The notes under the pieces: generated by a model | What the model was told of the DNA's origin: nothing | The model's database searches: none | Seen by the model: only the letters and a program-made list of their open reading frames with translations | In this document: in pieces, positions 45,810 through 48,510 of the stretch | How positions within the stretch are numbered: the first letter of the stretch is position 1 | How the letters are laid out: each line of letters starts with the position of its first letter | Position numbers and translations under genes: made by a program | DNA from: Spirochaetota bacterium | Lineage (GTDB): Bacteria > Spirochaetota > UBA4802 > JAFGDQ01 | Reading direction: 5' to 3' | Assembly: GCA_043803405.1 (NCBI GenBank) | Contig: JAZDKB010000018.1 | Coordinates: 160,001-224,000, forward strand | Length of the DNA: 64,000 bases

Positions 45810-46871
45810 TTACCGTTCTTTAAAATGATCCTTAATCAATTTAGAGAGCTTCTTTTCCCTGGCTTTTTTCTCGAGCCTGGCTTTTACATCCGTTTTCGAA
45901 TTAAGAAAGGATATCTCGCCTTTCATTCCCAGGTAATTTTCATATCTCGCATGATCGAGTATTCCTTCAAAGAGCGCTTTCTGTACAGCGCAGCCAGGTT
46001 CGCTCTGATGCGTGCAGTTCCTGAACCTGCATTTTTTTGCAATTACAGAGATATCGGAGAAAGCGTTGTCTATACTTTTTTCATCCGCCCATAGACCAAG
46101 TTCCCTTAGTCCCGGAGTGTCTATAAGCATCAGTCCGCCCGGAAGGAAGAAGAGTTCCTTGTGTGTTGTAGTGTGCCTGCCGCGCAGGTCATCCTGCCTC
46201 TGCGCACCCGTACGTATTTTTTGTTCTCCAAGCAAAGTGTTGATGAGCGCGGATTTCCCGACTCCCGAAGGTCCAGTTAGCGCAATAGTTGACATGGGCG
46301 CGCAGCCGGCAATAAGTTCGCGGAGCCCTTCTCCGGTAAAAGCGCTTACAATATGTACAGGTATATCCTCAGAAAAAGTTGCCTCTCGCATTGCCTGCTC
46401 CTTGTCTTTGCAAAGATCGGACTTGTTTAAGACAATAACTGGTCTGGCTCCGCTTTCACCTGCCATGGTGATATATCTTTCTATACCTCTCATATTAAAA
46501 TTCCTTCCTCCGTCAAGGCCGTTCACTATAAAAAGGATGTCTATATTCGCAGCAATGATCTGTTCGTCAATTTCCCTGCCTGCAGTTTTACGCGAGAAAG
46601 AACTCCTGCGTTCAAGGACTTTTTCTATAACAAATGTCCCGTCTGTTTCAGTCATTGCTACCCAATCGCCTATTGTCGGATAATCGGATCTCATAACCGC
46701 AGTATAATGGAACGCGCCGCTGACCTGGGCCGTATGTCTCCCGCTCTCAGACTCGACATCGTAGATATGGCGCGTCTCGCGTATAATCCTCGCAGGCATA
46801 AGTCCATGATTTCTGTATTGAGAAAATCTTTGTTCGAAAAAATCGTCCCATCCTAGTTGCTTTAGATTCAT
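45810..46871 (-). CDS. rsgA: 30S-dependent GTPase RsgA-family protein
   Basis: PTIGDWV, NKSDL, GPSGVGKS, GRHTTT, DTPGLR, CRFRNCTHQSEPGC. Confidence 0.93.
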   Translation of the reverse strand: MNLKQLGWDDFFEQRFSQYRNHGLMPARIIRETRHIYDVESESGRHTAQVSGAFHYTAVMRSDYPTIGDWVAMTETDGTFVIEKVLERRSSFSRKTAGREIDEQIIAANIDILFIVNGLDGGRNFNMRGIERYITMAGESGARPVIVLNKSDLCKDKEQAMREATFSEDIPVHIVSAFTGEGLRELIAGCAPMSTIALTGPSGVGKSALINTLLGEQKIRTGAQRQDDLRGRHTTTHKELFFLPGGLMLIDTPGLRELGLWADEKSIDNAFSDISVIAKKCRFRNCTHQSEPGCAVQKALFEGILDHARYENYLGMKGEISFLNSKTDVKARLEKKAREKKLSKLIKDHFKER

Positions 46872-47260
46872 GGCCTTTCTCCTTTGATACCGAGCAGGAA
46901 TGTATCTTTCAATAATGTTTCAGCCGGAAACGGCATTGACATGAACGGCCTGGTTGCCAGCAGCACCAGCAATAGTTCGCTGTCGTCTCCTGCAATGCGG
47001 TTTGTCCTTATAATGCCGCATTTGATGCATCTGTGTATTATGCTCCATTCTTTCTTTTTCCCGGCCCATATTCCGATTGGTTCCATCAGTCCGCGGCATC
47101 CGGACCTCCTGTCTCCAACGCATATATCTATATGAGAGCTGAAAAGGCAGAAGGGGCAATGATTGCGAAAATGCGTACCGCTTTCCGCTGAAGCAACGGG
47201 ATTGCCGCAATTACCGCAAATAAAAGGATCGTTGTTGCTTTGAATTTTATGTCTGGACAT
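46868..47260 (-). CDS. RNHCP-domain protein
   Basis: FICGNCG..FRNHCPFCLFSSHID..GDRRSGCRGLMEPI..HRCIKCG..NRIAGDD; ATGA overlap with rsgA. Confidence 0.9.
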   Translation of the reverse strand: MSRHKIQSNNDPFICGNCGNPVASAESGTHFRNHCPFCLFSSHIDICVGDRRSGCRGLMEPIGIWAGKKKEWSIIHRCIKCGIIRTNRIAGDDSELLLVLLATRPFMSMPFPAETLLKDTFLLGIKGERP

Positions 47261-47413
47261 AGTTGTCTCCGTATATACTTTTTATGTAATAATTATTTTT
47301 TAACAAAAGTTGTATTAACGGACGGATGTCCTGTTCTGGTTTTACAGAGAAGAAAAGATCTGGGTGCTTCTGTAGACGGGGTTATTTTAAAAACGAATTT
47401 ATTAAACCTGCTT

Positions 47414-47464
47414 TTATAAAATAAATCCCCTGAACAGGAACATCCTTACTGCTATATTCAACAT
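47414..47464 (-). CDS. Putative leader peptide MLNIAVRMFLFRGFIL
   Basis: AAGGAGG RBS, ATG at 47464, TAA at 47414-47416; overlaps a stem that pairs with downstream leader sequence. Confidence 0.65.
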   Translation of the reverse strand: MLNIAVRMFLFRGFIL

Positions 47465-47559
47465 AAAACCTCCTTTTATTTTAATTTTATAACTGTCTTT
47501 ACTTATATTGAGAAATACTGTCAATATTATTTTAAAAAAAATCTTATAAAAAATATTAA

Positions 47560-48510
47560 CTATTTTCTATTTCTTTTCTTTTTAAAAATTGCAAGCGCTT
47601 CAGATTTTATAATAGATGCGGTATCCTGCTTAAAGATGCTTTTTAATATATCATAAAGTTCGGGGCTGTTCTTTTTCATCTTTTCCGGATGCTCAAAGAA
47701 TTCCTCGCCTGCAACTGCAAGGAATTCTGCTTCCTCTGTCAGTGCATATGAATCGATATCCGATCTGCCGGACTCGATCTTCTCCATCTCCGACTCTCTG
47801 ATAGTTTTCCATTTGCCGAGTTCCTCCCTGTTAAGCATAAGCAGAGGAAGTCCGTCTATCACCCCATCCTCTTCATCAATTTTATGAATAAATTCATGAA
47901 TGGCAGTATTTCCTCCATCCATTGAGGCAAATCCCCTGAATAGTTCCTTTTTAGAAATGATTAAAGAGGAAGCATGCTGCTCCACCATGCCGAGCACATC
48001 CCTGTCGCCGGATTTAAAATTATAGTTATGATCGAACCTGTCAGGATAAACAAGTATCTCGCCCAGTGTATCGTATTCCCAGTCCTCAATTTTAAAAACA
48101 GGGATAATTGCAGCAGAAGCTATCAGGAGTTTTGTGCTGTCATCGACTTCTGTCCCAATGCCTGTGATTATTTTTTCAGCAAGAAATATCTGCACTTTTT
48201 TCTCAAAGTAATATTTCTCATCATCGCTGAGCGTCCTGTAAAAGAAAACCAAATCTGATAATATTTTTTTCCATTTTTCCGGAAATGGAATTGATGCTAT
48301 CTTTTTTCTTTTTCTGTATTTTCTGGTAATAAAAAAATGAAGAAATATAAACACGGATGCAGTGATAACGCCTGTCAGGTTTTCCATATCCGGAAAAAAT
48401 TTTCTTAATAAAAATGAAACTACATTAGCAGCAACTATAGCTGTTATTATTGAAACTATCAGCGAGAATAAGAGATTAATTTTATATCTACGCGTGAATA
48501 CTGCTTCCAT
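47560..48510 (-). CDS. MtfA-like (peptidase M90) zinc peptidase with N-terminal TM helices
   Basis: EILVYPDRF, NTAIHEFIHKID, YALTEEAEFLAVAGEEFFEHP, PELYDIL. Confidence 0.85.
   Translation of the reverse strand: MEAVFTRRYKINLLFSLIVSIITAIVAANVVSFLLRKFFPDMENLTGVITASVFIFLHFFITRKYRKRKKIASIPFPEKWKKILSDLVFFYRTLSDDEKYYFEKKVQIFLAEKIITGIGTEVDDSTKLLIASAAIIPVFKIEDWEYDTLGEILVYPDRFDHNYNFKSGDRDVLGMVEQHASSLIISKKELFRGFASMDGGNTAIHEFIHKIDEEDGVIDGLPLLMLNREELGKWKTIRESEMEKIESGRSDIDSYALTEEAEFLAVAGEEFFEHPEKMKKNSPELYDILKSIFKQDTASIIKSEALAIFKKKRNRK

What the first reader, a model, noticed from the sequence alone, without database searches (positions are those of the whole stretch)
47255..47475. Leader-peptide translational switch upstream of the RNHCP-rsgA operon
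Seen (minus strand): a strong AAGGAGG RBS and a 16-codon uORF MLNIAVRMFLFRGFIL (47464-47414). Segment A inside the uORF (GGATGTTCCTGTTC, 47445-47432) is complementary, with a one-nt bulge, to segment C (GAACAGGACATCC, 47336-47324). It encloses a second stem GGGGATTTATTTTA/TAAAATAACCCC. An overlapping segment GGACATCCGTCCGTTAATAC (47331-47312) can instead pair with GTATATACGGAGACAACTATGTCC (47278-47255), which contains the RNHCP RBS and start codon. The two pairings are mutually exclusive. Established: uORF attenuators control genes that protect against ribosome-targeting antibiotics, and RsgA is a 30S maturation GTPase. Inference: normal uORF translation covers A and keeps the operon OFF. Stalling at the first codons, or ribosome scarcity, leaves A free (it starts ~19 nt after the AUG) and turns it ON. 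RNHCP-RsgA would then be an inducible ribosome rescue or resistance module.
Basis: partly seen in the sequence, partly recalled or inferred. Interest (0 to 1): 0.78.

Follow-up and report, generated by a model that had tools for sequence, protein, structure and literature searches.

The report
Ribosome-position switch before second RsgA
A short upstream reading frame and a conserved long-range RNA helix sit in front of a zinc-binding gene and a spare copy of the ribosome-assembly GTPase RsgA, and probably let these genes be translated when ribosomes stop in the first few codons.

Summary
All segments lie at the stated coordinates (fold z -4.1). 44 of 55 non-redundant RNHCP-rsgA operons carry the same leader. 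Across 50 leaders, segment A sits 21-22 nt after a uORF AUG in 49, is read in two frames, and pairs with C with compensatory changes at 10 of 13 pairs. So the RNA gauges ribosome position, not a peptide. The two pairings are not fully exclusive: only 6 of the 15 RBS-side pairs compete with A:C, and these 6 show no covariation. Modelled ribosomes over A close the RNHCP start by a median 2 kcal/mol (31 of 50; control masks 10 of 200), which supports trp/whiB7-like polarity. The window itself goes the other way (-2.3) because of a local hairpin. The RsgA is a second copy, and lone RNHCP genes in other lineages have their own short uORFs. Trigger, polarity and any resistance role are untested. This scan reported the same leader family before on other DNA (e1-6741195). 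I found no paper on it.

The parts
47519..47524 (-). Perfect -35-like hexamer of a probable promoter; transcript start inferred near 47489
   Evidence: TTG[AC]C lies within 110 nt upstream of the uORF in 45 of 50 leaders, mostly at -55 to -66 (no chance control run). The consensus scan called no promoter here because the -10 is weak.
47468..47475 (-). Strong Shine-Dalgarno of the uORF
   Evidence: an SD word is present in 39 of 49 leaders with enough upstream sequence.
47414..47464 (-). 16-codon uORF (10-18 codons in relatives); translation not shown
   Evidence: Codon 5 is V in 39 and A in 9 of 50.
47449..47457 (-). uORF codons 3-5, able to pair with the RNHCP start codon in ribosome-free RNA (weak)
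   Evidence: p = 0.12 in the window; p <= 0.05 in 11 of 50 leaders.
47432..47445 (-). Segment A: sensor arm inside the uORF, partner of C
47378..47430 (-). Inner stem B (47430-47417 with 47389-47378), holding the uORF stop codon
47362..47373 (-). C', a weaker, nearer complement of A; clade-specific
   Evidence: p <= 0.05 in 7 of 50, including L031, L034, L144; p = 0.12 in the window.
47335..47348 (-). Small hairpin E overlapping the 5' end of C
47324..47336 (-). Segment C: pairs with A, or (3' half) with the RNHCP start codon and codon 2
47317..47335 (-). Hairpin F, joining C with the anti-RBS segment; peculiar to this copy
   Evidence: L031, L034 and L144 have A where the window has G at 47323.
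47312..47322 (-). Anti-RBS segment; pairs with 47278-47268 whether or not A:C forms
   Evidence: prefers its own RBS in swap tests.
47255..47278 (-). RNHCP ribosome-binding site, start codon and codon 2: the regulated output
46868..47260 (-). RNHCP-domain gene, 130 aa, with invariant Cys/His residues (probable zinc binding); function unknown
45810..46871 (-). rsgA, second copy, 353 aa, start overlapping the RNHCP stop

Best explanation
A translational attenuator that reads where the ribosome is on a uORF, with trp/whiB7-like polarity. Shown by sequence comparison: A lies at a fixed distance just beyond the footprint of an initiating ribosome and pairs with C. The segment after C forms a standing hairpin with the RNHCP RBS, and the 3' half of C can extend that hairpin over the start codon. 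Inferred: ribosomes that elongate across A (from about codon 5) free C, which clamps the start codon (OFF). Ribosomes held at codons 1-3, or lost before codon 5, leave A free to capture C, and the RBS is then held only by the weaker hairpin (ON, partial). rsgA follows by translational coupling. The likely triggers are start-codon arrest by ribosome-targeting drugs or faulty initiation; the output is an accessory 30S maturation or repair GTPase plus RNHCP.
For: 44 of 55 non-redundant RNHCP-rsgA loci have the leader. A:C 89.7% paired, 10 of 13 pairs compensatory, 0 of 500 shuffles, slid controls 29-49%. C 3' half plus anti-RBS segment against the RBS/start: p <= 0.05 in 35 of 50; controls 0 of 50 and 3 of 50. 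Opening cost, codon 6 minus codon 1: median +2.0 kcal/mol, above +1 in 31 and below -1 in 4 of 50; control masks 10 and 3 of 200. By lineage, 12 of 21 clusters above +1 and 2 below -1. The effect grows with position: +0.25 at codon 3, +0.4 at codon 4, +1.1 at codon 5. In 14 further loci that lost RNHCP, 7 are above +1 and none below -1, and 10 keep a stub ORF ending at the rsgA start. The RsgA is a second copy in 5 of 5 relatives tested and 37% identical to the other copy here. In S. coelicolor an RsgA paralogue is listed among WblC-activated genes (PMC7157823, passages and supplement rows).
Against: The window itself gives the opposite sign (9.5 at codon 1, 7.2 at codon 6), and its clade shows no net switch. 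The 6 exclusive pairs do not covary, and 16 of 50 break the outer pair. The ON state still costs a median 8.6 kcal/mol to open. A local test was weaker: 24 of 50 above +1 against 47 of 200 controls. In the 14 RNHCP-less loci the swap test shows no own-partner preference (median rank 0.44). Codon 5 is V or A in 48 of 50 with no family-wide pairing partner for codons 3-7 (3 of 50); a stall there would cover A and not induce under this model. Orthology with the Streptomyces gene was not tested. All energies are equilibrium models.
Confidence: 0.58

Rival explanations
1. Opposite, ermC/toiL-like polarity: A:C plus the standing RBS hairpin is the resting OFF state, and a ribosome stalled over A (codons 5-9, perhaps at the conserved V/A codon 5) lets C fold with the anti-RBS segment and frees the RBS.
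For: This is what the model gives for the window (hairpin F). A:C and the RBS hairpin coexist in the window, L031 and L034. Codon 5 is V/A in 48 of 50; tylosin-dependent stalling at Val5 is reported for toiL (PMC12121999, passages).
Against: Hairpin F rests on one base absent from the three closest complete relatives. Only 4 of 50 leaders and 2 of 21 lineages show this sign. No R/K-x-R/K motif in any of 50 uORFs, and the frame changes after codon 6.
Confidence: 0.17
2. A gauge of ribosome supply rather than of drugs: same structures and direction, but the signal is how often a mature 30S initiates on the uORF, so that the 30S maturation GTPase is under feedback from its own product.
For: Strong SD, no fixed peptide, and a ribosome-assembly GTPase as output. 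Efficient-translation-represses logic allows induction by loss of initiation, as with a whiB7 loss-of-start mutation (PMC10274678, passages).
Against: Free RNA is no more open than the codon-1 state (median +0.1; more closed in 18, more open in 11 of 50; window +1.7), and uORF codons 2-6 pair with the RBS/start in 11 of 50. That would keep untranslated RNA OFF in those.
Confidence: 0.14
3. The structure is set by something other than a uORF ribosome (RNHCP or RsgA binding its own leader, RNA decay, or Rho), and the uORF is incidental.
For: A, C and flanking bases are conserved beyond what pairing needs. RNHCP has invariant Cys/His residues and could bind RNA (inference).
Against: The SD-AUG keeps a fixed distance to A in 49 of 50 with no stop before the end of the A core. 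The leader persists where RNHCP is lost (14 of 38 loci).
Confidence: 0.09
4. Chance complementarity in an AT-rich intergenic region.
For: None beyond the window's reversed energy sign.
Against: 18 of 22 pattern matches in 122 genomes lie at RNHCP/rsgA loci.
Confidence: 0.02

Closest known systems
whiB7/wblC uORF attenuator (PMC10274678, passages read) and trp-type attenuators (recalled)
   Same: Efficient uORF translation represses; poor translation frees an arm that captures the repressive strand; output is a translation-stress gene.
   Different: No intrinsic terminator found in this leader; the output is occlusion of an RBS and start codon; short uORF with no regulatory-codon enrichment; only partial exclusivity.
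vmlR and cplR leaders (PMC9226507, PMC10201436, passages read)
   Same: Proposed sensing of ribosomes arrested at the start codon; SD-sequestering hairpin in front of a ribosome-acting NTPase gene.
   Different: Those have 3-codon uORFs whose stalled ribosome itself breaks the repressive stem, need uORF translation for induction, and use a terminator. Here the arm lies beyond the initiating ribosome, in a 10-18-codon uORF.
toiL of E. coli topAI-yjhQ (PMC12121999, passages read)
   Same: Purely translational switch with long-range pairing; valine at codon 5; in 11 of 50 leaders uORF codons 2-6 also pair directly with the downstream RBS/start.
   Different: In toiL a stall anywhere in the uORF opens the RBS; here the main helix is A:C and covering A is predicted to close the RBS in most copies.
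ermC / cat-86 leader-peptide attenuators (recalled, not read)
   Same: uORF plus four alternative segments controlling an RBS.
   Different: No conserved arrest peptide over A (two frames); predicted polarity opposite in most copies.
SCO6149, WblC-activated RsgA paralogue of Streptomyces coelicolor (PMC7157823, passages and supplement rows read)
   Same: A second RsgA tied to translation-targeting antibiotic stress.
   Different: Controlled by a transcription factor; orthology with this RsgA not tested.

Membership tests
trp/whiB7-type attenuator | uORF overlaps the arm that captures the repressive strand | tested here: met
   A lies inside the uORF in 50 of 50; A:C covaries.
trp/whiB7-type attenuator | Intrinsic terminator before the main gene | tested here: not met
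   No terminator-like site on the minus strand in 47260-47560 (window only).
trp/whiB7-type attenuator | Covering the arm represses | tested here: inconclusive
   Model only: 31 of 50 in favour, window against.
trp/whiB7-type attenuator | uORF is translated; loss of its start derepresses | not testable with these tools
   Needs toeprinting and reporters.
ermC-type leader-peptide attenuator | Conserved arrest peptide over segment 1 | tested here: not met
   A core is in frame 0 in 39 and frame 1 in 11 of 50; no R/K-x-R/K in 50.
ermC-type leader-peptide attenuator | Stall on segment 1 opens the RBS | tested here: inconclusive
   True in the model for the window and 3 others of 50.
vmlR/cplR-type start-codon sensors | About 3-codon uORF inside the repressive stem, plus a terminator | tested here: not met
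   10-18 codons; no terminator.
toiL-type leader | uORF pairs directly with the downstream RBS | tested here: inconclusive
   11 of 50 at p <= 0.05; window p = 0.12.
Any Rfam 15 family | Match at the gathering score | tested here: not met
   None at the leader; best E = 0.26, 18 bits against 60.
RsgA GTPases | PF03193 / TIGR00157 over cut-off; GTPase motifs and Cys/His zinc site intact | tested here: met
   160.4 against 30 and 155.7 against 100 bits; invariant motif columns in 51 relatives. Below the cut-offs of NF008931 and NF008932.
Antibiotic resistance or ribosome rescue factor | Drug-inducible and raises tolerance | not testable with these tools
   No expression or phenotype data.

The most novel reading that the evidence does not exclude
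RNHCP and the accessory RsgA form an undescribed, cross-phylum translation-stress module for the small subunit. It is wired in each lineage to a different ribosome-sensing leader that shares an Ile/Thr/Phe-Val/Ala element: the long A:C leader in spirochaetes, leaderless-looking 5-codon uORFs in Planctomycetota, 7-9-codon uORFs in Leptospira-like genomes and 3-codon uORFs before other rsgA copies. In the spirochaete form the leader would be a band-pass detector, ON only when a ribosome has initiated but fails to pass codon 4, reporting 30S subunits that initiate but cannot elongate.
Probability: 0.25. Interest if true: 0.8.

Novelty: new variant of a known kind. Interest (0 to 1): 0.56.

Why it matters
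Many bacteria carry a second RsgA of unknown purpose, and RNHCP (PF12647) returned no relevant paper in two searches. A conserved ribosome-sensing leader marks both as probable translation-stress genes and makes that testable with one reporter fusion. A 30S assembly GTPase as an inducible protection or repair factor would add to the known large-subunit examples such as ABCF and HflX proteins. The leader also offers a translational version of trp/whiB7 logic tuned to the first codons.

Tried and rejected
Rfam: no family. RNA reads: no RNA holder was listed, which is no evidence. Complex of RNHCP with RsgA: no answer, score 0.00 in two runs; not evidence either way. RNHCP fold (pLDDT 82.6): no Foldseek match at E <= 0.001, best VIA Z 2.7; the Atlas feature search gave no usable hit. 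Neighbours of lone RNHCP genes: 89 of 104 candidate ORFs scanned, no consistent family; 5 were methyltransferases. C' as a family-wide kinetic trap: rejected, 7 of 50. uORF SD pairing with RNHCP codons 3-6, seen in the window's fold: not conserved, 3 of 50. Macrolide +X+ motif: 0 of 50. A-type leader before 8 plasmid-collection rsgA genes, including one RNHCP-rsgA operon (L227): none seen by eye. No covariance model was built, so breadth rests on protein-anchored loci and one exact pattern. Literature searches found no description of this leader; the library lacks most subscription papers, and bioRxiv supplements were not seen. PMC13009471 (passages) was not relevant.

Full report
1. The observation. 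The 251-nt region folds at -55.9 kcal/mol, z -4.08, with 0 of 200 shuffles as stable. The genes behind it are RNHCP (47260-46868) and RsgA (46871-45810), overlapping by four bases. No Rfam family matches. The closest named relatives are titled uncultured Leptospiraceae and Leptospirales.

The claim of mutual exclusion holds only in part. Of the 15 pairs on the RBS side, 6 use bases of C. The other 9 (47322-47312 with 47278-47268) form beside A:C in the minimum-energy folds of the window, L031 and L034. Evaluated alone, that standing hairpin is -6.4 kcal/mol, -8.8 with a small hairpin over the start codon, and -13.4 when C adds its 6 pairs.

2. Conservation. I gathered 222 RNHCP-containing records, the window included. 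Of 55 non-redundant RNHCP-rsgA loci with at least 150 nt upstream, 44 passed a filter for an AUG followed by an A-like core. Six loci without a visible rsgA passed too, giving 50 leaders; one further hit, L178 (core at +30), was dropped as a probable chance match. Of the 11 that failed, L046 and L055 look like variants, L143 is cut at its 5' end, and the leader of L053 is displaced by an insertion. The A core lies 21 nt after the AUG in 39, 22 nt in 10 and 19 nt in 1, although +12 to +33 was allowed. It is therefore read in two frames, and the uORF runs 10-18 codons. What is kept is the distance from the start codon to A, not the peptide over A. An initiating ribosome reaches to about +16 to +18 (PMC9226507 and PMC12121999, passages), so A begins just outside it.

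A:C is paired in 89.7% of cells, with compensatory changes at 10 of 13 pairs; no shuffle of 500 reaches this, and slid controls give 29-49%. Relatedness can inflate that shuffle test, as the tool warns. The 6 pairs between C and the start codon are 83% paired with no compensatory change; both sides are constrained for other reasons, so this neither supports nor refutes them. The 3' half of C together with the segment after it is complementary to the leader's RBS/start at p <= 0.05 in 35 of 50, against 0 of 50 and 3 of 50 for control pairs. The segment after C prefers its own RBS in swaps (median rank 0.14-0.17 against 0.47-0.58). An exact pattern for the leader's 5' part hit 22 places in 122 genomes of the order: 18 at RNHCP/rsgA loci, 2 at contig ends and 2 inside unrelated genes.

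3. Direction of the switch. I masked the RNA from its 5' end to the edge of a ribosome at a given codon and computed the cost of opening -15 to +6 of RNHCP. Relative to codon 1 the cost changes by a median +0.25 at codon 3, +0.4 at codon 4, +1.1 at codon 5 and +2.0 at codon 6, where 31 of 50 exceed +1 and 4 fall below -1. Control masks of 15 nt between A and C give 10 and 3 of 200. Grouped at 70% RNHCP identity, 12 of 21 lineages exceed +1 and 2 fall below -1. A cruder local test was weaker (24 of 50 against 47 of 200).

The window is one of the exceptions: 9.5 kcal/mol at codon 1 and 7.2 at codon 6. The cause is hairpin F (47335-47317), which lets freed C fold with the anti-RBS segment; forbidding it gives 11.2. 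F depends on a G at 47323 where L031, L034 and L144 have A, yet this four-member clade shows no net swing (median -0.2). The ON state also remains costly to open (median 8.6). Free RNA is not more open than the codon-1 state, and in 11 of 50 leaders uORF codons 2-6 pair with the RBS/start. That favours a stalled ribosome over mere scarcity as the signal, weakly.

4. A natural test. Of 40 further accessory-rsgA regions picked mostly from genomes without an RNHCP match, 38 could be placed and 14 carry the same leader. Ten of the 14 keep a stub ORF, beginning at an RBS after C and ending at the rsgA start. In four related genomes (L238, L240-L242) both C and codon 2 of the stub differ from the window and still pair. 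Covering A raises the opening cost by more than 1 kcal/mol in 7 of 14 and lowers it that much in none, but the swap test is flat in this set (median rank 0.44). The regulated start site and its coupling to rsgA thus outlast RNHCP itself.

5. The output. G000 has two RsgA genes, 37% identical over the matched part, and 5 of 5 relatives tested have at least two. GTPase and zinc-site residues are invariant. RNHCP-RsgA fusions exist in two Atlas clusters of 57 and 53 members. In S. coelicolor an RsgA paralogue is named among WblC-activated genes (PMC7157823); I did not test orthology. Lone RNHCP genes have short uORFs of their own. A 5-codon ORF ending in V, A or C lies upstream in 32 of 93 loci (named ones mostly Planctomycetota), against 1 of 93 on the reverse strand, 0 of 82 further upstream and 1 of 93 shuffled. 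A 5-9-codon ORF ending in V or A lies upstream in 21 of 21 Leptospira-like loci, which are close kin. Six of 23 other rsgA loci have a 3-codon ORF of related form (0 of 23 reversed). These patterns were defined after seeing the data. Codon 5 of the A-type uORFs is V or A in 48 of 50, and Val5 is a reported tylosin stall site in toiL (PMC12121999). This remains unexplained and keeps the opposite polarity alive.

6. Comparison and verdict. The leader works most like the whiB7/trp attenuators, where efficient uORF translation represses (PMC10274678, passages), but it acts on an RBS and has no terminator. It is not a member of the erm, vmlR/cplR or any Rfam family by the tests listed. Nine literature searches found no description. 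Notes of this scan report the same family and similar leaders before second rsgA genes; I did not count them as support. Verdict: a real, conserved, ribosome-position-sensing leader, a new variant of a known kind. Early arrest turning it ON is the best reading (0.58); polarity in this copy, the trigger and any resistance role are unproven. Interest 0.56.

Noticed in passing
L094, L097, L100, L103, L106-L108, L110 and others, 130-310 nt upstream of RNHCP: Lone RNHCP genes, mostly in Planctomycetota, have a 5-codon uORF ending in V/A/C, often with a -10-like hexamer about 8 nt before the AUG (leaderless-looking); 32 of 93 loci against 0-1 in three controls.
   Followed up: partly
L007, L008, L011, L012, L014-L030, L036, about 160-200 nt upstream of RNHCP: Leptospira-like genomes (label inferred) have a 7-9-codon SD-less uORF ending Ile-Val/Ala, with a -35-like box about 35 nt upstream; its pairing with the RNHCP start was not significant (0 of 21).
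   Followed up: partly
L258, L259, L261, L264, L266, L267, 88-124 nt upstream of rsgA: Another accessory RsgA clade has a 3-codon uORF, Met-Ile/Leu-Val/Ala/Glu (6 of 23 loci, 0 of 23 reversed).
   Followed up: partly
L232, L236-L244: RNHCP is reduced to a 23-55-codon stub that keeps its RBS and still overlaps the rsgA start; in L232 the zinc-binding middle is deleted in frame.
   Followed up: partly
L286:1500-2350: An intact leader is separated from the RNHCP start by about 600 extra bases.
   Followed up: no
ESM Atlas clusters: RNHCP-RsgA fusion proteins of 450-477 aa, commonest in Bacillota.
   Followed up: no
L227:1077-2508: RNHCP-rsgA operon on a Vibrio plasmid, with only about 125 nt after a TetR gene and no A-type leader.
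   Followed up: partly
L032, L037, L041, L090, L091, L138, L161: Reverse gene order, rsgA then RNHCP, in 12 of 222 records.
   Followed up: no
L003, about 80 nt upstream of RNHCP: Three tandem copies of a roughly 25-nt unit just before the RBS.
   Followed up: no
L122:1582-1821 and L011:3-1229: An IF-1 gene (L122) and an ABC ATPase gene (L011) directly follow lone RNHCP genes.
   Followed up: no
window 47560-48510: MtfA-like M90 peptidase gene on the same strand just upstream; no terminator-like site was found between it and the leader, so read-through is possible.
   Followed up: no
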